Part shown: piece after piece, positions 6,249-35,608 of the stretch
Layout: the number at the start of each line of letters is the position of its first letter
Numbering within the stretch: position 1 is the first letter of the stretch
Source of the DNA: Bacteroidota bacterium
Lineage (GTDB): Bacteria; Bacteroidota; Bacteroidia; 2-12-FULL-35-15
Direction: 5' to 3'
NCBI GenBank assembly: GCA_005772895.1
Contig: SXIH01000038.1
Span: forward strand, 42,941 to 106,940
Length of the DNA stretch: 64,000 nucleotides
Program-made: the position numbers and the translations under genes
Notes under the pieces: model-generated
Databases searched by the model: none
Told to the model about the DNA's origin: nothing
What the model saw: the letters and a program-made list of their open reading frames with translations, nothing else

Positions 6249-7592
6249 CTATAAATGCTTTAGCATTGCCTTCTCCACTTCTTCGCTGTCCCACTTTTTA
6301 TCGATATCAGGCATAGACATAATTTTTTGCATGATGACTTCCTGCCTTTGTCCTTCTTTTAATGCTGTGGAATATCGGATGTGCGGACTATATGTCACCA
6401 TTGAATAAAGTGGAATCCATTTGTCGGGATGTTTGCTGCTGAAGTTGGCTTCAATTTTCTTTTGTAGTAAAAATTTCGGGTCGGCTGTTTTGTCACGCAT
6501 CTCAATAAAGTTGGCGATTGCTAAATCGGCAATTGCATCACCATCGGGTTTGCGTAATGTTTCGTATTCAGGAAATATTTTTGTCCAATCTTCTTTGTGT
6601 TTATCAATTAATTGATTTAACACAACACAATCTTCAAAACCGCAATTCATTCCTTGTCCGAAGAACGGAACGATAGCATGAGCGGCATCTCCTATGAGTC
6701 CCACTTTGTTGTCGAATGTCCAAGGGAAACATTTTACGGTTACCAATGATGAAACAGGATTGTTCATATAATCGTCTAGCAATGTCGGCATCAATGGAAC
6801 AGCATCCGGAAATTCTTCTTCAAAAAATTTCTTCACTTGTTCTTTTGTTTTGATGGCTGCAAAGGATTTTTCTCCTTCGAATGGAAAAAATAAGGTGCAG
6901 GTAAAATTGCCATCCAGGTTCGGCAAAGCTATCATCATAAAACTTCCGCGTGGCCAGATGTGCAATGCATTTTTTTCTAATAAAAATTCTCCATTTGGTC
7001 CGGGTGGAATAATTAATTCTTTGTACCCTGCCGAAATATAATGTTGATTGTATTCGAAACGGTCGCTGGTTAATTGCATGTTTAAACGTGATGCAGCAAA
7101 TGCTCCGTCAGAGCCAAACAATAAATCACTTTTAGAAGAACTTGTTTTTTTAGTTTCATCATTTTCAAAATGTGCTTCTAAACTTTTTCTATCAATTGTT
7201 GTACAGCGTTCGTTGAAATGAATTTTTACATTTGGCTGTTGCTCTGCTAAATCCATCAAACGCATATTTATTTCTCCCCGTGAAACAGAATAAATGGCTT
7301 GATTGTCTTTTCCATAAGGTTGATAAGCTGTTGAGCCGTCTTTATGATGTATTGCTCTTCCGTACATTGGAATTGCAATTTTTTTAATTTCATCGGCAAT
7401 ACCAACCCCTTCTAATCCTTTCCAACCTCTGTCGCTCAATGCAAGATTGATAGATTTTCCAGCTGAAATATTTGCAGTCCGCATATCAGGTCTGCGTTCA
7501 AACATATTTATTTTATAGCCACGCTTTGCTAAATAAATGGATAGCAATGATCCAACTAATCCCGCTCCGATAATATTTACACTTTTACTCAT
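6249..7592 (-). CDS. kmo: Kynurenine 3-monooxygenase (FAD-dependent)
   Basis: 447 aa with an N-terminal GAGLVGS FAD motif and blocks LHIWPRGSFMMIALPN..FTCTLFFPFE and GDAAHAIVPFFGQGMNCGFEDC, near-identical to eukaryotic and bacterial KMO. Confidence 0.9.
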   Translation of the reverse strand: MSKSVNIIGAGLVGSLLSIYLAKRGYKINMFERRPDMRTANISAGKSINLALSDRGWKGLEGVGIADEIKKIAIPMYGRAIHHKDGSTAYQPYGKDNQAIYSVSRGEINMRLMDLAEQQPNVKIHFNERCTTIDRKSLEAHFENDETKKTSSSKSDLLFGSDGAFAASRLNMQLTSDRFEYNQHYISAGYKELIIPPGPNGEFLLEKNALHIWPRGSFMMIALPNLDGNFTCTLFFPFEGEKSFAAIKTKEQVKKFFEEEFPDAVPLMPTLLDDYMNNPVSSLVTVKCFPWTFDNKVGLIGDAAHAIVPFFGQGMNCGFEDCVVLNQLIDKHKEDWTKIFPEYETLRKPDGDAIADLAIANFIEMRDKTADPKFLLQKKIEANFSSKHPDKWIPLYSMVTYSPHIRYSTALKEGQRQEVIMQKIMSMPDIDKKWDSEEVEKAMLKHL

Positions 7593-7647
7593 ATATCTTT
7601 TTTATTTCAAATAAATACTTTTGTTTCAGATATCACAATGACAAAAA

Positions 7648-8262
7648 TCACTTCTTCATATATATGTCATTCAAACCCTGTTTCTCTTTTATTTTTGCAA
7701 TGCCTTGTGCCATTCTTTTTTCTCTTGTTGCATCTTGTTTTGCTCCGTTAATCCATTGCACATAGTCTTTTCTTCTGGAGTAACTCATCTCTTCAAAATT
7801 GTGAAGGATTTTATTTTTTTCTAAAAGTTTTTTAAAATCAGGTGGGATGACAACTGTTTTGTCTTTCGCTTCAGTAATTTTCAAACCCTTTTCATTATTG
7901 ATAACTGCTTCTGTAATATACTCGATCAATAATTTTTCATCAATTTGTTTTACGTCTGTATATTTTATGTGACGATTATGCAAATTGCCTTCATTCATTT
8001 GCAATACTTTTTTCTTGTCCTTTAACAATGCGCCTTGCCAAAAAGTAAAAGTGCAGTGTTTTTTAAAATACCAGAATCCGCAAACCATACCATCTTTGTA
8101 GTAATTCGGACCCCATTTCCAATCTTCAATAATTGCAGGCTCTGCCTTGAAAATAATAGCACGCAATTTTTTGCAAATAGCTTGAGCAAATGGTTCAGCA
8201 CTTGCAATGCCTTCATCAATCAATTGCTTGGCATCAGGATTATGTTTTGGTTTTTTTGCCAT
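7648..8262 (-). CDS. DUF1801 / YdeI-OmpD-associated family protein
   Basis: 204 aa with an N-terminal DUF1801-like region and a C-terminal YdeI/OmpD-associated domain (bacteriocin-protection type). Confidence 0.4.
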   Translation of the reverse strand: MAKKPKHNPDAKQLIDEGIASAEPFAQAICKKLRAIIFKAEPAIIEDWKWGPNYYKDGMVCGFWYFKKHCTFTFWQGALLKDKKKVLQMNEGNLHNRHIKYTDVKQIDEKLLIEYITEAVINNEKGLKITEAKDKTVVIPPDFKKLLEKNKILHNFEEMSYSRRKDYVQWINGAKQDATREKRMAQGIAKIKEKQGLNDIYMKK

Positions 8263-8270
8263 TTCTTTCC

Positions 8271-8756
8271 TTATCGACCTTTTGATTTTTGACTTTTTTC
8301 TCTTTTAACTTTTTTTATTGGTAACCCTTTTTCAAAATAATCTTTTTCTATTCTAAGCACACTTGCAACGGCACGTTTTTCTCTTGTTTCTTTTCTTTTC
8401 GATTCGTTGATGTACTTTACATAATTTCTTTTGTGTGAAGGAGAATAAGCTTCGAACATTTTTTCTGCTTCCGGACTCGCTTCAAAAGCTTCTTTTAATT
8501 CTTCAGGAACTTTTAATTCTGCAAAATCTTCTTCTAAAATAATTTCAATTGTATCACCTGCTCCTTTTCTGATTGCTTTTCTGATTTGATTTTTTATTGG
8601 CATACAATGTTCTCCAGTTCCCATCGGCATAAGCGATGTGTCATCAAATGGAAATCTATCAATTGTTCCTTTTACTCTTACGTGTCCTGCTCTTCCAAAA
8701 ACTTTTCTAACATCAATGGGTGTTATAACAATTACCCATGAACCCAGTTTCTGCAT
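8271..8756 (-). CDS. DUF1905 / YdeI-OmpD-associated family protein (start trimmed to the internal Met)
   Basis: The track ORF runs to 8840, but its first 28 codons are encoded by an intergenic TCGCAGAT tandem repeat. DUF1905 proteins start at MQKLGSWVIV, so the likely start is ATG 8756. It is a paralog-like neighbour of 7648..8262. Confidence 0.4.
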   Translation of the reverse strand: MQKLGSWVIVITPIDVRKVFGRAGHVRVKGTIDRFPFDDTSLMPMGTGEHCMPIKNQIRKAIRKGAGDTIEIILEEDFAELKVPEELKEAFEASPEAEKMFEAYSPSHKRNYVKYINESKRKETREKRAVASVLRIEKDYFEKGLPIKKVKREKSQKSKGR

Positions 8757-8829
8757 TTGCACTTTGAATTTTTGTTTCGCTATTTTGCTCGCAGATTTCA
8801 CGGATTTTCGCAGATTTTTTTTAAAAAAT

Positions 8830-10098
8830 TTATAAAGCACTCTTCAGTATCTCTCCGAATCTATATACATCTTCAAAAGAATTATACAATGGAACGGGTG
8901 CACAGCGAATCACATTTGGTTCCCGCCAGTCAGAAATAATTCCCGCTTCCGTTAATTTGTTGAACAATTCTTTTCCTCTTCCGTGAGCAACAATTGAAAG
9001 TTGACATCCTCTTTGTTTTTTATCTCTTGGAGTAATAATTTCTAATTTTTTATCCAAGGATTTATTGATTTCATCAATAATAAATTCTAAATAACCCGTT
9101 AGTTTTTCTGCCTTAGCAACCAAAGCATCCATACCTACTTCGTTAAAAATATCTACTGAAGCTTTGTGAGCGGCCATGGATAAAACGGGAGCATTGCTCA
9201 TTTGCCAAGCTTCTGCAGTTGGCATTGGTACAAATCCTTTTTCCATTTTAAAACGTGTGTTCTTATCGTGTCCCCACCAACCTGCAAAACGAATAATTTC
9301 CGGTTTGTTCAAATGACGTTCGTGAATATAAACTCCTGCAACTCCACCCGGACCAGAATTTAAATATTTATAACTACACCAACATGCGAAGTCTACATTC
9401 CAATTGTGTAATTCTAATTTTAAATTTCCTGCAGCATGTGCCAAATCAAAACCAACCAATGCTCCGATTTTATGTCCGGCCTCCGTAATGCCCTTCATGT
9501 CGAACACTTGTCCGTTATAATAATTCACTCCACCAATCATAATGGTTGCAATCGAATCTTTGTTTTTTTCAATAGCAGCTAAAATATCTTCGTGACGGAT
9601 GCATATTTCTCCTTCACGTGGAGCAACTTCTATAATAGCATCATCAGGATTTAATCCATGAAATTTTACTTGTGATTCCAATGCATATTGATCGGATGGA
9701 AAAGCTTTTGCTTCACACAAAATTTTGTAACGAGTTTTGGTGGGGCGATAAAAACTCACTAATAACATGTGTAAGTTCACTGTCAGTTGATTCATTACAA
9801 CAACCTCTTCGGGTTTTGCACCAACAATTTTTGCAACAGGTTCAGCAAATTGTTCGTGATAGGGCATCCAGGGTTTACGCGAATGAAAATGACCTTCCAC
9901 ACCAAAAGTTGCCCAATCTTCCAATTCGTTCAAAACATAATCTTGTGTTGCTTTCGGTTGTAATCCCAATGAATTTCCCGTGAAATAAATAGTTTCGCGT
10001 CCATGCATCATTGGGAAATAAAATTTCTCACGATAACTTTTTAAAGGATCTGCTGCATCCTGTTGTTTTGCGTATTCAATGGTGTTTTCGTATTTCAT
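8830..10098 (-). CDS. kynU: Kynureninase (PLP-dependent)
   Basis: 422 aa with blocks FTGNSLGLQPK, GFDLAHAAGN, DFACWCSYKYLNSGPGG, RGCQLS and IRCAPVPLYNSFEDVYRF that match kynureninase throughout. Confidence 0.9.
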   Translation of the reverse strand: MKYENTIEYAKQQDAADPLKSYREKFYFPMMHGRETIYFTGNSLGLQPKATQDYVLNELEDWATFGVEGHFHSRKPWMPYHEQFAEPVAKIVGAKPEEVVVMNQLTVNLHMLLVSFYRPTKTRYKILCEAKAFPSDQYALESQVKFHGLNPDDAIIEVAPREGEICIRHEDILAAIEKNKDSIATIMIGGVNYYNGQVFDMKGITEAGHKIGALVGFDLAHAAGNLKLELHNWNVDFACWCSYKYLNSGPGGVAGVYIHERHLNKPEIIRFAGWWGHDKNTRFKMEKGFVPMPTAEAWQMSNAPVLSMAAHKASVDIFNEVGMDALVAKAEKLTGYLEFIIDEINKSLDKKLEIITPRDKKQRGCQLSIVAHGRGKELFNKLTEAGIISDWREPNVIRCAPVPLYNSFEDVYRFGEILKSAL

Positions 10099-10117
10099 AG
10101 AGCCTTGTCGGTTTTTG

Positions 10118-10134
10118 CTCGCAGAGACGCAGAG
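10118..10134. repeat. Left arm of a perfect 17-bp inverted repeat (CTCGCAGAGACGCAGAG) flanking the GxxExxY gene
   Basis: Its exact reverse complement CTCTGCGTCTCTGCGAG lies at 10603..10619. It is a member of the TCGCAGA repeat family. Confidence 0.8.
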
Positions 10135-10197
10135 TTCGCTGAGCTGTGTGTGTTAGTTGTTGGTGTTATTTACCGTGTGTTTTTGAGACGCAGTAGT

Positions 10198-10575
10198 TTA
10201 GTAATTGTTTACTATTCTTACTATCCCGTCTTTTACAAGGTTTACATTAAAATTTACTAATAATCCTACTTTTTTGTCCGTTAATTTTAAATAAGTCAAT
10301 AATTGTTTGTGGTGAACAGGTGCTAGTGCTTCAACTGATTTTATTTCTACAATAACTTTGTCTTCAACTATAATATCTGCTCTAAATCCAATATCCATTT
10401 TGTTGTCATCATAAAACACTTCGATACCTTCTTGTCTCTTAAAACTTAAGTTTCTTTTTTTTAATTCATAACAGACTACTTCTTCATATATACTTTCCAA
10501 CAATCCTGGACCTAGCCTCGAATGGACTTTTATAAAAATGTCAATAAGTGCCCCTGTAATATCATTTTCCTTCAT
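10198..10575 (-). CDS. GxxExxY family protein (PD-(D/E)XK nuclease-like)
   Basis: 125 aa carrying GLLESIYEEVVCYELKKRNL, the hallmark GxxExxY block, with the DxxV(E)xK-like core downstream. Confidence 0.7.
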   Translation of the reverse strand: MKENDITGALIDIFIKVHSRLGPGLLESIYEEVVCYELKKRNLSFKRQEGIEVFYDDNKMDIGFRADIIVEDKVIVEIKSVEALAPVHHKQLLTYLKLTDKKVGLLVNFNVNLVKDGIVRIVNNY

Positions 10576-10602
10576 AAATATTTTTTAATATGCCTCTGCG
10601 TG

Positions 10603-10619
10603 CTCTGCGTCTCTGCGAG
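10603..10619. repeat. Right arm of the 17-bp inverted repeat flanking the GxxExxY gene
   Basis: Exact reverse complement of 10118..10134. Confidence 0.8.
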
Positions 10620-10654
10620 AAATTTTTTCGCGGAGGATATTGCTTCCAAAGATA

Positions 10655-10662
10655 TATATTTG
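10655..10662 (+). promoter_or_regulatory. Putative Bacteroidota sigma-A -7 element (TATATTTG) for hemL
   Basis: It matches TAnnTTTG and sits about 20 nt upstream of the hemL ATG at 10682. Confidence 0.3.
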
Positions 10663-10681: not shown

Positions 10682-11974
10682 ATGAAGAGAGAAAAATCAG
10701 AAGCTTTATTTGAGAAAGCGAAAAAATATTTTCCCGGTGGTGTAAACAGTCCTGTCCGTGCTTTTCGTTCGGTTGGTGGCACTCCATTGTTTATTCAAAA
10801 AGGCAAAGGCTCACATATTTGGGATGCTGATGGAAATGAGTTTATTGACTATTGCGGTTCCTGGGGACCATTAATTTTAGGACATGCAAATGCTAAGGTG
10901 GTAGACGCCATTAAAAAAACAGTTGAGAATGGCAGCTCGTTTGGTGCACCAACAGCATTGGAAAATGATTTGGCGGAGTTGATTTTGAATAACAATAAAT
11001 ACATTCAAAAAATTCGTTTTGTAAGTTCAGGTACGGAAGCGGTGATGAGTGCTATTCGTTTGGCAAGAGGTTATACAAAAAGAAACAAGATTTTAAAATT
11101 CGAAGGGTGTTATCACGGACATAGTGATTCACTTTTGGTGAAAGCAGGTTCGGGATTGGTGACATTTGGTAATACATCATCAGCAGGAGTTCCTGAGAGT
11201 TTTGTGAATGAAACAATTGTAGTTTCATTGAATAACGAAGCCGCAGTTAAGCAAGCTTTCGCAGAATTTAAAGATCAGATTGCCTGTGTGATTATTGAAC
11301 CCATTCCAGCTAACAATGGATTGTTGTTGCAGCGCAAAGAATATTTGCAATTTTTACGCGACATCTGTACAGAAAACAAAACACTTTTAATTTTTGATGA
11401 AGTAATCAATGGATTCAGAATTGGTTTTGAAGGTGCAGCTGGTTATTATAAAATTCAACCAGACATTATTACTTACGGAAAAATTATTGGTGGTGGTTTG
11501 CCTGTTGGAATGTATGGTTCTTCTGCTGAGATTATGAGTAATATTTCTCCTGAAGGAAATGTGTACCAAGCGGGAACATTGAGCGGAAATCCTGTTGCTA
11601 TGGCAGCCGGGATTGCACAATTAACTGAATGTTTAAAACCTGGATTCTATGAGGAGTTGGAGAGCAAGACGAAGTTTTTGGTAGATTCCATCTTTTCAAA
11701 TTTCAAATTTCAAATTTCAAATTTTAAGATTTACAGTGTTGGTTCCGTTTTTTGGATTGCTTTTACAGATAAAGATGTTGTTCGTTCTGCAGAAGAAATT
11801 GATGCTGACTCAATGAAACATTTCAGAATTCTTCATAAAGAATTATTGGAGCGTGGAATTTATCTTGGTCCGTCAGGTTATGAAGTTGGTTTTGTTTGTG
11901 AAGCACATACAGAAGAAGATTTAATGAAAACAGCAAAAGCTTTTCGTGAAGCTTTGGAAATTGCTATGAAATAG
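10682..11974 (+). CDS. hemL: Glutamate-1-semialdehyde 2,1-aminomutase
   Basis: The protein starts MKREKSEALFEKAKKYFPGGVNSPVRAF and aligns along its full length with HemL. The track ORF starts 14 codons upstream at 10640, but ATG 10682 matches the family N-terminus. Confidence 0.9.
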   Translation: MKREKSEALFEKAKKYFPGGVNSPVRAFRSVGGTPLFIQKGKGSHIWDADGNEFIDYCGSWGPLILGHANAKVVDAIKKTVENGSSFGAPTALENDLAELILNNNKYIQKIRFVSSGTEAVMSAIRLARGYTKRNKILKFEGCYHGHSDSLLVKAGSGLVTFGNTSSAGVPESFVNETIVVSLNNEAAVKQAFAEFKDQIACVIIEPIPANNGLLLQRKEYLQFLRDICTENKTLLIFDEVINGFRIGFEGAAGYYKIQPDIITYGKIIGGGLPVGMYGSSAEIMSNISPEGNVYQAGTLSGNPVAMAAGIAQLTECLKPGFYEELESKTKFLVDSIFSNFKFQISNFKIYSVGSVFWIAFTDKDVVRSAEEIDADSMKHFRILHKELLERGIYLGPSGYEVGFVCEAHTEEDLMKTAKAFREALEIAMK

Positions 11975-12000: not shown

Positions 12001-12234
12001 ATGAATATCCAAGCACAAAAAATAGAGTTAGCAAAACAACTTTTAGATGTTAAGAGTGAAGTTGTTTTGAAACAAATCAAAGCATTTTTAAATGCTTACA
12101 AAACTGATTTGTGGGATGAGCTTTCTGATGAGCAGAAAGCCTCCATTCATCGCGCTAAAGTTCAGTTGGCAAACGGTGAAGGTGTTGCTCATAAAGAAGT
12201 AATGAAAAAGTATAAAAAATGGCGTACAAAATAA
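12001..12234 (+). CDS. Putative antitoxin (addiction-module component) of a type II TA pair
   Basis: 77 aa. It overlaps the downstream RelE/ParE toxin gene by 16 nt and has a small helical DLWDELSDEQKASI...KKW architecture typical of Bacteroidota addiction-module antitoxins. Confidence 0.5.
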   Translation: MNIQAQKIELAKQLLDVKSEVVLKQIKAFLNAYKTDLWDELSDEQKASIHRAKVQLANGEGVAHKEVMKKYKKWRTK

Positions 12235-12530
12235 TTTGGTCGCCAGAAGCCATTGATACTTTTGATGCAATAATTAAATATCTTTCTGAAAACTGGTCTG
12301 AACGAGAAGTATCTAATTTCTTAGATGACTCAGAGCACACTATATTTTTATTAGAGAAAAACCCATTTTTATTTCGTGGCTCAACCAAAGAGAGTGTTCA
12401 TGAGGCATTGATAACCAAGCACAATTTATTGTTATATCAAATTGTCGAAAATTCTAAAAGAGTTGAATTAATTAGTTTTTGGGACACACGCCAAAACCCT
12501 AAAAGAAAATTTTTGAAAAAGAAAAGATAA
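12219..12530 (+). CDS. Type II toxin-antitoxin system RelE/ParE-family toxin
   Basis: 103 aa starting MAYKIIWSPEA..D...I..YL, the RelE/ParE N-terminal signature. It is translationally coupled to the upstream small gene. Confidence 0.65.
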   Translation: MAYKIIWSPEAIDTFDAIIKYLSENWSEREVSNFLDDSEHTIFLLEKNPFLFRGSTKESVHEALITKHNLLLYQIVENSKRVELISFWDTRQNPKRKFLKKKR

Positions 12531-12554
12531 TTAAATTCTCTAAAGAAGTGTTTT

Positions 12555-13040
12555 ATGGAAGACGATGATTTCGATTTTAATTTCGATGACCTTTCGGATG
12601 AAGAAAAGGAAGAAATTGAAAAACAACAAAGAGAGGAACGAGAGGCTTTAGAAAATAGTCCTATTTATAAAAAAGCATTTGAGATTTATGAGACTGTAAA
12701 TGCTTTAGTTGAAAGTCTTTCTGATGATGATAAAGAATTCTATCAAAGTATCTTGCTTGAATCTTCAATGATTTTAGCACCAAAAATTGCAGGTGCTTTT
12801 GGAAGTGATAGTTGGTTAATTTGTATGCAAAATGCTTCCATTGTTAGATATCACGCTGAGTATTTACTCACTTCCACTTCCGGATTGAGACTATTTACAA
12901 AAGCACAAAAAGAATATGTGCAATTGTTTCGAACAGAAATGGAAAAGTTTCAAGAGTTATTTAAAGAATGGGTCAAAACATTCGATAAGTTAGAAAAGGA
13001 AGAATATGTTGATGAATGGGGATTATTTTTAAGAAAATAA
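12555..13040 (+). CDS. Hypothetical acidic protein (161 aa)
   Basis: Clean ORF with an Asp/Glu-rich N-terminus. No family recognised. Confidence 0.3.
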   Translation: MEDDDFDFNFDDLSDEEKEEIEKQQREEREALENSPIYKKAFEIYETVNALVESLSDDDKEFYQSILLESSMILAPKIAGAFGSDSWLICMQNASIVRYHAEYLLTSTSGLRLFTKAQKEYVQLFRTEMEKFQELFKEWVKTFDKLEKEEYVDEWGLFLRK

Positions 13041-13112
13041 TATATTTTTCTGCGTAAATCTGCGTAATCTGCGAGCCATTTCCTATATTTATTCCATCAA
13101 AACTACTTCACA

Positions 13113-13982
13113 ATGGTAAAAAATATTCTTGTTATCGGAGCTACAGGAATGCTTGGCAAACCGGTCACTAAAGAATTAGCGAATTCCGGATTTACTGTTT
13201 CTGCACTTGTACGCAATCCTGAAAAAGCAAAAAAAGAATTGCCGGCAAATATCAAACTCATCAAAGGAGATATTTCAAGCGAAAAAGACTTAGTGAATGC
13301 TATGCAAGGGCAAGATGCTGTGTATTTAAGTTTATCTATTAAACAAAACGAAAAAAAATCTGCTTTTCACAGTGAACAAGAGGGAATGCAGAACGTAATA
13401 AAAGCAGCAAAACAGCAGAACATAAAACGTATCGGATATTTATCTTCTCTGGTAATGTTCTATCAGGGAATGAATGGTTTTAATTGGTGGGTGTTTGAAT
13501 TAAAACACAATGCTGTGAAAATGCTGAAAGAAAGTGGTATTCCTAGTACAATTTTTTATCCTTCTAATTTTATGGAGAGTCTTGCCGGAATGTACAAGCA
13601 AGGAAAAATGTTGATGCTTGCCGGTAAATCATCTTATCCAATGTATTTTATTTCGGCTTTTGATTATGGAAAACAAGTAGCAAAATCATTTTCAATTTTA
13701 TCGGATGAAAATAAAGAATATGTTGTTCAAGGTACAGAAGCATTTAATGCGGACGATGCTGTAAAATTATTTAAGTCGCATTACAAAAAAGAAAAATTAT
13801 TTATTTCGAAAGCGCCATTAGGAATGATTAAATTTTTTGGAATGTTCACAACTAAAATGAATTATGGTGCACATATTTTGGATGCTTTAAATAATTATCC
13901 TGAAAAATTTGAAGCAGAAACTACCTGGAAAGAATTGGGTAAACCGCAAATGACAATTAAAAAATATTCAGAAGAACTTTAA
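13113..13982 (+). CDS. NAD(P)H-binding NmrA-like / atypical SDR family oxidoreductase
   Basis: 289 aa with an N-terminal ILVIGATGMLGKPV Rossmann motif. Confidence 0.55.
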   Translation: MVKNILVIGATGMLGKPVTKELANSGFTVSALVRNPEKAKKELPANIKLIKGDISSEKDLVNAMQGQDAVYLSLSIKQNEKKSAFHSEQEGMQNVIKAAKQQNIKRIGYLSSLVMFYQGMNGFNWWVFELKHNAVKMLKESGIPSTIFYPSNFMESLAGMYKQGKMLMLAGKSSYPMYFISAFDYGKQVAKSFSILSDENKEYVVQGTEAFNADDAVKLFKSHYKKEKLFISKAPLGMIKFFGMFTTKMNYGAHILDALNNYPEKFEAETTWKELGKPQMTIKKYSEEL

Positions 13983-13992
13983 TCTAAATAAT

Positions 13993-14430
13993 ATGCAAAA
14001 CGAAAAACTTTTTAATGGAACGATTTGGTATTTAAAAATCGCTACGGTTTTTGGACTGATCATGTGTTTTGTATTAATGTATTACCAGAGTTTTGATCCT
14101 GCCGGAGGTTTGGAGATGATGATTGTGCAGGATCTTTACAAAACAGATGTGATGCCTGCAGATGCCAGACCAATGTTTGTGTTTGTATTTCTCTTATTTG
14201 ATATGTTAAGTGTACTAAGTTTAATGGGACAATATTTGGTGATTGTACATGGCTTGCAGAAAAAACAAAAATGGGCTTTTCATTATATGGTTTTGATAGG
14301 CGTTTTTTGGCCTATTGGCGCAGCAATTATAGCCTGGTATTGTAAGGTGCCTGCATATTTCTTTTCAGTTGGAATGATGACGTGTATGTTTTTTCCTCCG
14401 CTTTTAATTTTGTGGAAATATTTTAAATAG
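13993..14430 (+). CDS. Hypothetical integral membrane protein (145 aa)
   Basis: Four predicted TM helices. No family recognised. Confidence 0.3.
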   Translation: MQNEKLFNGTIWYLKIATVFGLIMCFVLMYYQSFDPAGGLEMMIVQDLYKTDVMPADARPMFVFVFLLFDMLSVLSLMGQYLVIVHGLQKKQKWAFHYMVLIGVFWPIGAAIIAWYCKVPAYFFSVGMMTCMFFPPLLILWKYFK

Positions 14431-35571: not shown

Positions 35572-35608
35572 TTTCTCGCAGATTTCGCAGATTCTCGCAG
35601 ATTTTTCT
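35572..35608. repeat. TCGCAGAT short tandem repeat (ctcgcagatttcgcagattctcgcagat)
   Basis: Three tandem roughly 9-bp units. Same family as the copies at 8785..8820, 10112..10134, 10597..10619 and 13048..13076. Confidence 0.7.

What the first reader, a model, noticed from the sequence alone, without database searches (positions are those of the whole stretch)
10112..10625. GxxExxY (PD-(D/E)XK-like) gene cassette flanked by perfect 17-bp inverted repeats between kynU and hemL
CTCGCAGAGACGCAGAG at 10118..10134 has its exact reverse complement at 10603..10619. The two arms bracket a single 125-aa GxxExxY gene oriented opposite to hemL. GxxExxY genes are notorious for occurring as small insertions (for example within rRNA intervening sequences). 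A perfect inverted-repeat bracket suggests a mobile or recombination-prone cassette, or alternatively a long stem that would sequester the whole gene in a hairpin when transcribed. The arms belong to the TCGCAGA repeat family seen elsewhere in the window.
Basis: seen in the sequence. Interest (0 to 1): 0.6.

Follow-up and report, generated by a model that had tools for sequence, protein, structure and literature searches.

The report
Inverted-repeat-bounded mini-nuclease gene cassette
A small nuclease gene sits between two housekeeping genes, bounded by inverted repeat arms that flank this gene family across several bacterial phyla, and relatives have lost or swapped the unit at the arm edges, so it behaves like an undescribed exchangeable, probably selfish, cassette.

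Summary
CTCGCAGAGACGCAGAG (10118-10134) has its exact reverse complement at 10603-10619, against 0.02 matches expected by chance. The repeat extends to 29 nt. It brackets a 125-aa PF13366/TIGR04256 (GxxExxY) nuclease gene between kynU and hemL.

The arms are not locus-specific. Each is TTTC[T/A] plus three CGCA[G/A]AG heptamers spaced 8-9 nt apart. The same inverted pair flanks about 65% of GxxExxY genes sampled in Bacteroidota, Ignavibacteria/Chlorobiota, cyanobacteria and Acidobacteriota. Arms are 22-91 times denser beside these genes than elsewhere.

The cassette has no recognisable promoter of its own. It lies in the kynU 5' UTR, downstream of a conserved bidirectional promoter core. Elsewhere it sits co-oriented inside gene strings.

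The hemL-kynU site is empty in deep-branching relatives and in four nested close ones. In two strains with 98% identical kynU, a 74% identical cassette has replaced the other, with breakpoints at the arm edges. Gene-less arm hairpins, tandem arm arrays and solo arrays also occur.

The protein is under strong purifying selection (dN/dS 0.03-0.09) and has a Cas4/RecB-like fold. I found no target-site duplication, no Rfam family and no literature.

Best reading: an exchangeable, REP/RAYT- or IVS-like nuclease cassette. The mechanism is inferred, not shown.

The parts
10198..10575 (-). GxxExxY / PDDEXK_3 mini-nuclease ORF (125 aa). Catalytic-type residues E27/E31, D67, E77 and K79 are invariant in 30 homologues.
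   Evidence: AF2 model has pLDDT 87.7; the best PDB match is Cas4 SSO0001, TM 0.54. dN/dS is 0.03-0.09.
10594..10622 (-). Gene-upstream arm. Read on the minus strand it is TTTCT-CGCAGAG-A-CGCAGAG-CA-CGCAGAG, and it ends 18 nt before the ATG.
   Evidence: It matches the family consensus from 50 loci.
10115..10143 (-). Gene-downstream arm. Read on the minus strand it is CTCAGCG-AA-CTCTGCG-T-CTCTGCG-AGCAA. It lies 54 nt after the stop codon and 16 nt before the kynU ATG, followed by an A-rich run.
10185..10196 (-). Extra partial arm unit directly after the stop codon (minus strand CTACTGCGTCTC). It is conserved in relatives.
   Evidence: Relatives show aactactgcgtctcc.
10623..10636 (-). Outer partial arm of opposite polarity (minus strand CCTCCGCGAAAAAA). 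With the first unit of the upstream arm it forms a local 12-bp hairpin.
   Evidence: hairpin 10610-10636. Similar outer remnants occur in L005, L102, L106 and L107.
10645..10662 (.). Conserved bidirectional promoter core, TGCAAATATATATCTTTG as read on the minus (kynU/cassette sense) strand. The minus-strand -7 box TATCTTTG (10654-10647) faces the cassette and kynU. The plus-strand -7 box TATATTTG (10655-10662) faces hemL.
   Evidence: It is present in filled and empty loci alike. That this is the promoter is inferred from the published Bacteroidetes consensus TAnnTTTG.
8788..8815 (+). Solo array of three CGCAGAT-type units (CTCGCAGATTTCACGGATTTTCGCAGAT) just downstream of the kynU stop.
   Evidence: The same flavour flanks a GxxExxY homologue on viral contig L181.
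13049..13075 (-). Solo array of three CGCAGAT-type units, 9 nt downstream of ORF 12555-13040.
35572..35602 (+). Solo array TTTCT-CGCAGAT-TT-CGCAGAT-TCT-CGCAGAT between convergent genes (the right-hand one is recX-like).

Best explanation
**Shown.** The feature is one copy of a conserved cassette architecture of the GxxExxY (PF13366/TIGR04256) family. The cassette is a roughly 125-aa minimal Cas4/RecB-like PD-(D/E)XK nuclease ORF with no recognisable promoter of its own. It is bounded by two inverted arms of about 30 bp. Each arm is TTTC[T/A] followed by three CGCA[G/A]AG heptamers at 8-9 bp spacing.

In this window the cassette lies inside the kynU 5' UTR, downstream of the conserved hemL/kynU bidirectional promoter core. 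In other genomes it lies co-oriented inside gene strings.

At the hemL-kynU site the cassette was gained once in an ancestor. It was then inherited vertically under strong purifying selection, lost several times, and in some lineages replaced by a divergent cassette. The exchanged segment is delimited by the outer arm edges. The arms also occur without the gene, as hairpins, tandem arrays and solo arrays.

**Inferred.** The arms are the cis-acting ends of a selfish or semi-domesticated element, recognised as duplex DNA, most plausibly by the encoded nuclease acting as a dimer. Movement or exchange would proceed by nuclease-induced breakage plus recombination through the conserved arms or flanking homology. 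That is homing-like or REP/RAYT-like, not DDE-type transposition with target duplication.

Because both arms are co-transcribed, they would also pair in the RNA. That pairing may limit polar damage to the host operon.
For: **Family identity and active site.**

**Arms are a family-wide feature.**
- 65% of 78 loci have an own-locus inverted-repeat score of at least 12. They span four phyla and the arms usually lie 0-30 nt from the ATG and the stop.
- The arm consensus comes from 50 loci.
- Arm density is 22 times (GxxExxY-centred loci) and 91 times (unbiased kynU-centred loci) higher within 200 nt of GxxExxY ORFs than elsewhere.

**No own promoter, embedded in host transcription units.**
- No TAnnTTTG lies closer than 54 nt to the ATG in any of the 78 loci.
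- In the window, the only sense-strand -7 box lies upstream of the arm.
- Upstream neighbours are co-oriented in 66 of 76 loci, and downstream neighbours in 67 of 75. Median gaps are 85 and 62 nt.

**Gain, loss and replacement.**
- Empty sites.
- The kynU tree has empty deep branches and four empties nested among filled loci.
- L106 vs L107: kynU is 98.2% identical but the cassette ORF only 74.1%. The left flank is 87/87 identical up to the outer TTTCT. Identity resumes on the right at GCGAGAAATT-ATG.
- Cassette lineages at this site are polyphyletic.
- The L104 cassette is a pseudogene.

**Gene-less derivatives.** L080 carries arrays that include internally deleted cassettes. L108 carries a 20-bp perfect hairpin, z = -9. 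See also L127, L045 and L075.

**Selection and family size.**
- dN/dS is 0.03-0.09 while the arms persist at saturated dS.
- Fused two-domain homologues suggest a dimer.

**DNA-level rather than RNA-helix signature.**
- Arm mismatches are 17 sense-wobble, 21 antisense-wobble and 68 transversions.
- Free positions are paired in only 44-69% of loci, whereas the heptamer sequence is conserved across phyla.
Against: - No biochemical or transcript data exist. Nothing shows that this protein binds or cuts the arms.
- No target-site duplication was found.
- No near-identical copies at different loci were seen. The nearest cassette in another context is at most 80% identical, so recent transposition is not demonstrated.
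- Strong purifying selection and long vertical inheritance would equally fit a host-beneficial gene.
- The two arms of a cassette share the G/A flavour in about 90% of cases. That is also what an RNA or DNA pairing requirement would give.
- Loss and replacement could result from ordinary homologous recombination in the flanks after DNA uptake, with no activity of the element itself.
- I could not inspect a whole genome to count cassettes against gene-less arms.
Confidence: 0.5

Rival explanations
1. RNA-level element, IVS-like. The two arms pair in the read-through transcript to give a 26-29 bp duplex. RNase III or a similar enzyme processes that duplex. This excises or stabilises the cassette mRNA and restores a usable leader for the downstream host gene. 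Under this reading the arms exist mainly for RNA structure.
For: - Both arms lie downstream of the only sense promoter box.
- The cassette is co-oriented with its neighbours in about 88% of loci.
- The closing stem appears in both the MFE and the centroid fold on either strand.
- 87.9% of cells are paired, against 82.8% in shuffles (0 of 500 shuffles reach it). There are both-sided changes at the flavour and -1 positions.
- An A-rich run follows the downstream arm, just before the host ATG.
Against: - There is no excess of G-U over A-C mismatches (17 vs 21), and most mismatches are transversions.
- Free positions are paired in only 44-69% of loci, and spacer 1 matches no better than in cross-locus pairs.
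- The heptamer sequence is conserved across phyla, which pairing alone does not require.
- Solo arrays have no partner.
- No Rfam family matches.
- This reading does not explain exchange breakpoints at the arm edges.
Confidence: 0.3
2. A host-beneficial, non-mobile small nuclease, for example in repair or defence. The heptamer arrays are operator sites for autoregulation. Presence/absence simply reflects ordinary gene loss and homologous recombination between strains.
For: - dN/dS is 0.03-0.09.
- Inheritance at the hemL-kynU site is vertical across a whole clade.
- There is weak Cas4-like similarity.
- Three direct heptamers at 8-9 bp spacing look like protein-binding sites.
Against: - Gene-less hairpins, internally deleted copies and tandem arm arrays exist.
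- Cassettes are replaced with breakpoints at the arm edges.
- Cassette lineages at one site are polyphyletic.
- The same arms occur with the gene across four phyla, which implies transfer as a unit.
- An operator is not expected downstream of the stop codon in inverted orientation.
Confidence: 0.15
3. A chance inverted repeat, or a generic intergenic or terminator-type repeat unrelated to the gene.
For: Related solo arrays exist at three other intergenic sites in the window. One local terminator-like hairpin lies at 10610-10636.
Against: - Chance expectation is 0.02 matches.
- Arms are 22-91 times enriched beside GxxExxY genes.
- The long-range inverted repeat has no loop or U-tract geometry of an intrinsic terminator.
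Confidence: 0.03

Closest known systems
REP / REPIN - RAYT systems (repetitive extragenic palindromes with their REP-associated tyrosine transposase; PMC3733652, PMC5581495, PMC8049555)
   Same: - A single nuclease-type gene is flanked by inverted copies of a short repeat.
- The repeat also occurs without the gene, as hairpin doublets and clusters in intergenic regions.
- The gene is vertically inherited under purifying selection and does not behave as a multiplying insertion sequence.
   Different: - The protein is a PD-(D/E)XK (Cas4/RecB-like) nuclease, not an HUH/Y1 transposase.
- Each arm is three direct heptamers, not a palindrome with a GTAG/CGTC tag.
- Arms are strongly concentrated at the gene, with few dispersed copies in the sequence seen here.
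- The family is often multi-copy per genome. That last point rests on my own knowledge of the family and was not tested here.
23S rRNA intervening sequences with an internal ORF (e.g. the Coxiella and Leptospira IVS; PMC4990558)
   Same: - A small ORF of about 0.4-0.6 kb is bracketed by inverted repeats that can form a closing stem.
- It is embedded in a host transcript.
- Its distribution is sporadic, and it is regarded as a selfish element.
   Different: - It is located between protein-coding genes, not in 23S rRNA helices.
- The ORF belongs to PF13366, not the four-helix-bundle S23p/PF05635 family.
- RNase III processing has not been shown here.
Free-standing or intron-borne homing endonuclease genes, including the PD-(D/E)XK enzyme I-Ssp6803I (from my own knowledge)
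   Same: - A small nuclease gene shows presence/absence polymorphism at one conserved site between housekeeping genes.
- Spread by break-induced recombination would leave no target duplication.
   Different: - Homing endonuclease genes lack conserved terminal inverted repeats.
- They usually decay quickly, whereas this gene has dN/dS of about 0.04.
- No structural match to I-Ssp6803I appeared among the top Foldseek hits.
MITEs / TIR transposons
   Same: Terminal inverted repeats bound the unit, and internally deleted gene-less derivatives form hairpins.
   Different: - No target-site duplication.
- No DDE or other known transposase.
- No near-identical dispersed copies were seen.
Cas4 (CRISPR adaptation nuclease)
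   Same: It is the best structural match (4ic1, TM 0.54) and gives weak profile hits.
   Different: - The protein has 125 aa and a single cysteine, so it lacks the Fe-S cluster.
- No cas gene or CRISPR array is adjacent: the flanking genes are hemL and kynU.

Membership tests
PF13366 PDDEXK_3 / TIGR04256 GxxExxY | Full-length HMM match above the curated cut-offs | tested here: met
   Pfam gives 140.2 bits against a cut-off of 22. NCBIfam gives 143.9 bits against a cut-off of 35.
PF13366 PDDEXK_3 / TIGR04256 GxxExxY | GxxExxY motif and the PD-(D/E)XK catalytic signature (E ... D ... ExK) | tested here: met
   G24-L-L-E27-S-I-Y30, D67 and E77-I-K79 are all invariant in 30 homologues. The model shows an alpha-beta PD-(D/E)XK core.
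TIR transposon / MITE | Terminal inverted repeats bounding the unit | tested here: met
   Arms of 29 nt, of which 17 nt match perfectly. They are conserved across the family.
TIR transposon / MITE | Target-site duplication flanking the repeats | tested here: not met
   No direct repeat of 3-8 nt exceeded shuffled partners in 49 loci.
TIR transposon / MITE | Several near-identical copies at different loci | tested here: inconclusive
   The closest cassette in another context is at most 80% identical. No complete genome could be surveyed.
REP-RAYT | The associated gene is an HUH/Y1 (IS200/IS605 TnpA-like) transposase | tested here: not met
   The protein belongs to PF13366, a PD-(D/E)XK family.
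REP-RAYT | The gene is flanked by inverted repeat units that also occur dispersed, and as hairpin doublets | tested here: met
23S rRNA intervening sequence | Inserted in 23S rRNA (helix 25 or 45) | tested here: not met
   The flanks are hemL and kynU. There were no Rfam hits, rRNA included, in 25 other loci.
23S rRNA intervening sequence | Closing stem cleaved by RNase III | not testable with these tools
   The stem is predicted, but there are no RNA-end data.
Intrinsic terminator | Short GC-rich hairpin with a 3-8 nt loop followed by a U tract | tested here: not met
   The arms are 450 nt apart. The only consensus hit is a local hairpin at 10610-10636.
Cas4 | C-terminal four-cysteine Fe-S cluster and association with cas genes | tested here: not met
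   The sequence has a single cysteine, C35. The neighbours are hemL and kynU. PADLOC hits reach only E about 1e-3.
Integron gene cassette | A single attC site per cassette, arrayed next to an intI integrase | tested here: not met
   There are two inverted arms per gene, the cassette stands alone between housekeeping genes, and no recombinase is adjacent.

The most novel reading that the evidence does not exclude
GxxExxY genes and their heptamer-array arms may form a previously undescribed, cross-phylum class of repeat-plus-nuclease element. It would be a PD-(D/E)XK counterpart of REP/RAYT. A minimal Cas4/RecB-like nuclease would recognise TTTCW(CGCARAG)x3 ends and drive insertion, exchange and decay of promoterless cassettes inside host operons. 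It would also seed gene-less hairpins and solo arrays, which could serve as landing pads. The G, A and T 'flavours' of the heptamer would mark co-evolving nuclease/arm specificities.
Probability: 0.3. Interest if true: 0.8.

Novelty: new variant of a known kind. Interest (0 to 1): 0.64.

Why it matters
PF13366/GxxExxY is a very large family of unknown function, with 18,548 clusters at 50% identity. The main survey of PD-(D/E)XK enzymes lists its function as 'Unknown' (PMC3424549).

A conserved pair of sequence-specific inverted arms travels with the gene across phyla. These arms delimit the segment exchanged between strains and survive as gene-less hairpins. Together these findings give the family its first testable functional context: a likely DNA or RNA substrate (the arm) and a likely biology (an exchangeable cassette embedded in operons).

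If confirmed, this would add a nuclease-based analogue to REP/RAYT systems. It would also explain a class of short GC-rich intergenic repeats in AT-rich Bacteroidota and cyanobacterial genomes, and flag a source of polar effects and local tandem duplication next to housekeeping genes.

Tried and rejected
- **Chance inverted repeat.** Rejected.
- **Generic terminator or ubiquitous repeat.** Rejected by the enrichment test and the geometry.
- **Recent insertion.** Rejected. Orthologues down to 69% protein identity keep the gene at this site, and dS is saturated.
- **Target-site duplication.** None found.
- **Known RNA family.** There was no significant Rfam hit in the window region. The only hit was a eukaryotic lncRNA at E = 2, which I treat as noise. 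There were no hits at all in 25 loci.
- **Solved structure by sequence.** None found.
- **Defence or phage libraries.** Only weak Cas4-like hits.
- **Viral carriage.** One distant hit only.
- **Other cargo in the window.** The ORFs beside the solo arrays are not four-helix-bundle or IVS proteins. One is recX-like and the others have no family.
- **Protein residues tracking the arm flavour.** Positions 2, 7, 8 and 103 differ between G- and A-flavour cassettes. This is confounded by phylogeny, so I did not use it.
- **Empty versus filled site alignment.** Aligning L102 with L027 gave no clean junction, because the spacer has been remodelled.
- **An early error.** My first arm-register regex used the wrong spacer length and failed. 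It was corrected.
- **A conclusion I softened.** My early view of 'no covariation at all' was revised. The flavour and -1 positions do covary.
- **Literature.** Searches for GxxExxY, PDDEXK_3, PF13366, TIGR04256, IVS with four-helix bundle, and REPIN/RAYT found no description of this architecture.

Full report
**1. The observation**

The 17-mer CTCGCAGAGACGCAGAG lies at 10118-10134, and its exact reverse complement lies at 10603-10619. With up to three mismatches allowed these are the only two matches in the 64-kb window. Shuffles predict 0.02 matches. The complementarity extends to 29 nt at 86% (10115-10143 / 10594-10622).

Between the arms is a single ORF, 10198-10575 on the minus strand (125 aa). 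It matches PF13366 PDDEXK_3 (E 4.8e-41) and TIGR04256 GxxExxY (E 2.6e-42) over their full length. The flanking genes are kynureninase (8830-10098, minus) and glutamate-1-semialdehyde aminomutase hemL (10682-11974, plus). The window is AT-rich (34.9% GC). It comes from a Bacteroidota metagenome-assembled contig (relatives named).

**2. The arms are a family-wide motif, not a locus-specific repeat**

I fetched 79 loci encoding relatives of the protein (56-95% identity) from species-representative genomes. In 65% of them the best inverted repeat between the 150 nt upstream and the 150 nt downstream scores at least 12. It is the same kind of sequence each time, and usually lies 0-30 nt from the start and stop codons.

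Aligned on the outermost heptamer, 50 loci give this consensus upstream: TTTC[T/A]-CGCA[G/A]AG-N-CGCA[G/A]AG-N(1-2)-CGCA[G/A]AG. Downstream is its reverse complement, followed by an A-rich run.

The carriers include Bacteroidota, Ignavibacteria/Chlorobiota, the cyanobacteria Nodularia and Sphaerospermopsis, and a Bryobacterales genome.

Arm-like arrays are 22 times denser within 200 nt of a GxxExxY ORF than elsewhere in these loci. In an independent set of 80 loci chosen through kynU rather than through the nuclease, they are 91 times denser. So the perfect 17-bp match in the window arises because both arms carry the consensus CGCAGAG-A-CGCAGAG. The idea that the repeat is a generic motif unrelated to the gene is rejected.

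**3. Pairing or sequence?**

On 16 loci with identical arm spacing, 87.9% of cells form standard pairs against 82.8% in shuffles. Nearly all two-sided changes sit at heptamer position 5 (the G or A 'flavour') and at the position just outside the first heptamer. The freely varying positions are paired in only 44-69% of loci.

In a broader set, the single-base spacer matches its partner no more often than it matches the partner of another locus (0.33 vs 0.33).

Among 106 arm mismatches in 50 loci, 17 would be G-U on the sense RNA, 21 would be G-U on the antisense RNA, and 68 are transversions. An RNA helix under selection should show a wobble bias and drift in sequence. Here the sequence is conserved across phyla and no such bias exists.

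I therefore read the arms as two inverted copies of a recognised sequence. They will still pair when co-transcribed: the closing stem appears in the MFE and centroid folds of either strand.

**4. Transcriptional setting**

All hemL-kynU loci, filled or empty, share the core TGCAAATATATATCTTTG as read on the kynU sense strand. It contains the Bacteroidetes -7 consensus TAnnTTTG on both strands (the consensus itself is established knowledge, not tested here). The kynU-facing box (window 10654-10647) lies upstream of the upstream arm. No such box lies closer than 54 nt to the cassette ATG in any of the 78 loci examined. The cassette therefore appears to lack its own promoter and to sit in the kynU 5' UTR.

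In other genomes the upstream neighbour is co-oriented in 66 of 76 loci and the downstream neighbour in 67 of 75. Median gaps are 85 and 62 nt. The exceptions on the upstream side are mostly the hemL-kynU orthologues.

**5. History at this site**

The gene occupies the hemL-kynU spacer in orthologous loci down to 69% protein identity. It is under strong purifying selection, with dN/dS of 0.03-0.09 and dS from 0.5 to saturation. It is therefore an old, functional resident.

A kynU-based metagenome scan nevertheless found empty sites:
- L101 has kynU 95% identical at the protein level, a 112-nt spacer and no arms.
- L102 has a 120-nt spacer and is 93.6% identical in kynU DNA to the filled L027.
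- L105 is also empty.
- L127 has a 138-nt spacer that contains an arm hairpin without a gene.
- Eight or more deeper relatives are empty as well.

On a kynU tree the deep branches are all empty, and four empties are nested inside the filled clade. This fits one old gain followed by several losses.

L106 and L107 have 98.2% identical kynU and 97.6% identical downstream DNA. Their cassette ORFs are only 74.1% identical, with arms of different flavour. Their left flanks are 87/87 identical up to the outer TTTCT and diverge from the first heptamer. Identity resumes on the right at GCGAGAAATT-ATG.

Other findings point the same way:
- The L104 cassette is a 65%-identical pseudogene.
- L113 has the arms in flipped order.
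- The outlier cassettes at this site (L107, L044, L113) are about as close to cassettes in unrelated contexts as to the main hemL-kynU clade, and L113 is closer.

The segment that is gained, lost and exchanged is thus bounded by the arms.

**6. Gene-less derivatives and arrays**

- L080 carries arrays of about 112-nt units on both sides of its gene. Each unit is forward arm, short loop, reverse arm. Two units retain the 5' UTR and the first four codons fused to the reverse arm, so they are internally deleted cassettes.
- L108 has a 20-bp perfect arm hairpin directly after kynU, z = -9.
- L045 and L075 have similar gene-less pairs.
- A viral contig (L181) carries a 52% homologue embedded in alternating arrays of a CGCAGAT flavour. 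The three solo arrays in the window (8788-8815, 13049-13075, 35572-35602) are of this same flavour.
- In the closest relatives of the window (protein 96% identical) both flanks are tandemly duplicated. Upstream there are one to four or more 105-nt units (outer flank, arm, first 11 codons). Downstream there are one to three or more 117-nt units (3' UTR, arm, first 13 kynU codons). Copy number differs between samples.
- A second cassette in L013/L025 shows an analogous duplication that includes the 3' end of the upstream gene.

I have no mechanism for these duplications.

**7. The protein**

E27/E31, D67, E77 and K79 are invariant. The AlphaFold model (pLDDT 87.7) is a PD-(D/E)XK core. Its best solved match is Cas4 SSO0001 (TM 0.54), followed by lambda-exonuclease-type enzymes.

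Profile hits to Cas4 are weak. With a single cysteine it cannot hold the Cas4 Fe-S cluster.

The family has 18,548 clusters at 50% identity with E below 1e-3. These include fused two-domain forms that suggest a dimer. No solved structure is detectable by sequence. The major survey of the superfamily lists the function as unknown (PMC3424549).

**8. Interpretation**

Shown:
- The cassette architecture is conserved across phyla.
- It sits inside host transcription units and shows no promoter of its own.
- It is gained, lost and replaced, with breakpoints at the arm edges.
- Gene-less derivatives exist.
- There is no target-site duplication.

Inferred: the arms are cis-acting ends recognised as DNA, most plausibly by the encoded nuclease. 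Exchange would proceed through breakage plus recombination via the arms or flanks. I give this 0.5.

The main rival, at 0.3, is that the arms exist for an RNase III-type processing stem, as in rRNA intervening sequences. The two readings are compatible. A non-mobile autoregulated host nuclease gets 0.15. It fits the selection data but not the derivatives or the exchange breakpoints. Chance or a generic terminator is excluded.

**9. Comparison and novelty**

The closest analogues are:
- REP/REPIN-RAYT systems, which share the logic but use a different enzyme class and repeat structure;
- ORF-bearing 23S rRNA intervening sequences, which share the geometry but have a different host context and ORF family;
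- homing endonuclease genes;
- MITEs.

Each fails at least one defining feature (see the membership table). I found no Rfam family and no paper describing the arms or the cassette.

I rate it a new variant of a known kind, namely inverted-repeat-bounded selfish nuclease elements. The more novel reading is a PD-(D/E)XK counterpart of REP/RAYT, at about 0.3 probability.

Noticed in passing
L005 3708-4034; L006 1-333 and 692-1051; L007 1-215 and 573-932; L022 (hemL-kynU gap 1263 nt): In the closest relatives both cassette flanks carry tandem duplications centred on an arm. The upstream units are 105 nt and include the first 11 codons of the nuclease. The downstream units are 117 nt and include the first 13 codons of kynU. 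Copy number (1 to 4 or more) differs between samples, and units are about 89-94% alike. The number of 9-nt heptamer units also varies (3 vs 4). I have no mechanism for this.
   Followed up: partly
L080 2420-2990 and 3420-3960: A Cyclobacteriaceae GxxExxY gene is embedded in arrays of about 112-nt gene-less arm hairpins on both sides. The arrays include two internally deleted cassettes that keep only the 5' UTR and four codons.
   Followed up: partly
window 8788-8815, 13049-13075, 35572-35602: Solo arrays of three CGCAGAT-type units lie just downstream of stop codons. They have no inverted partner and no nuclease gene nearby. The same flavour flanks a 52% GxxExxY homologue on viral contig L181. 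A matching nuclease may lie elsewhere in this genome.
   Followed up: partly
window 10645-10662: An 18-nt core, TGCAAATATATATCTTTG as read on the minus (kynU) strand, has back-to-back TAnnTTTG boxes on the two strands. It is conserved in all hemL-kynU loci, filled or empty, and looks like a compact bidirectional Bacteroidetes promoter.
   Followed up: partly
window 7648-8840 and 12001-14430: Gene content next to the cassette varies between relatives. The DUF1905/OmdA and DUF1801/OmdA genes between kynU and the FAD monooxygenase are absent in L005-L008. The ParE-type toxin pair, ORF161, the epimerase and ORF145 between hemL and ubiA are also absent in L005. Solo arm arrays sit at two of these junctions.
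   Followed up: no
L013/L025 5376-5944: A second GxxExxY cassette (132 aa, CGCAAAG-flavour arms) lies 2 kb from the first, between the DUF1801 gene and the monooxygenase. Its upstream arm and the 3' end of the DUF1801 gene are duplicated.
   Followed up: partly
L016 3503-4811: In GCA_964268675.1 the kynU gene downstream of the cassette is called as three short fragments (163, 89 and 85 aa). This is either a pseudogene or frameshift errors in the assembly.
   Followed up: no
P0121-P0124, P0131, P0132 and others: Some family members are 270-295 aa proteins with two tandem GxxExxY domains. This is consistent with the single-domain proteins acting as dimers.
   Followed up: no
L113, L055, L060, L074: In a minority of loci the arm order is flipped relative to the gene, with the CTCTGCG-type arm upstream and the CGCAGAG-type arm downstream. 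Simple inversion between the arms cannot produce this arrangement.
   Followed up: no
window 6249-10098: Kynureninase and a kynurenine-3-monooxygenase-like FAD enzyme lie within 1.3 kb of each other, separated by the two DUF1905/DUF1801 genes, in this Bacteroidota genome. This looks like a kynurenine-pathway cluster whose first gene carries the cassette in its leader.
   Followed up: no
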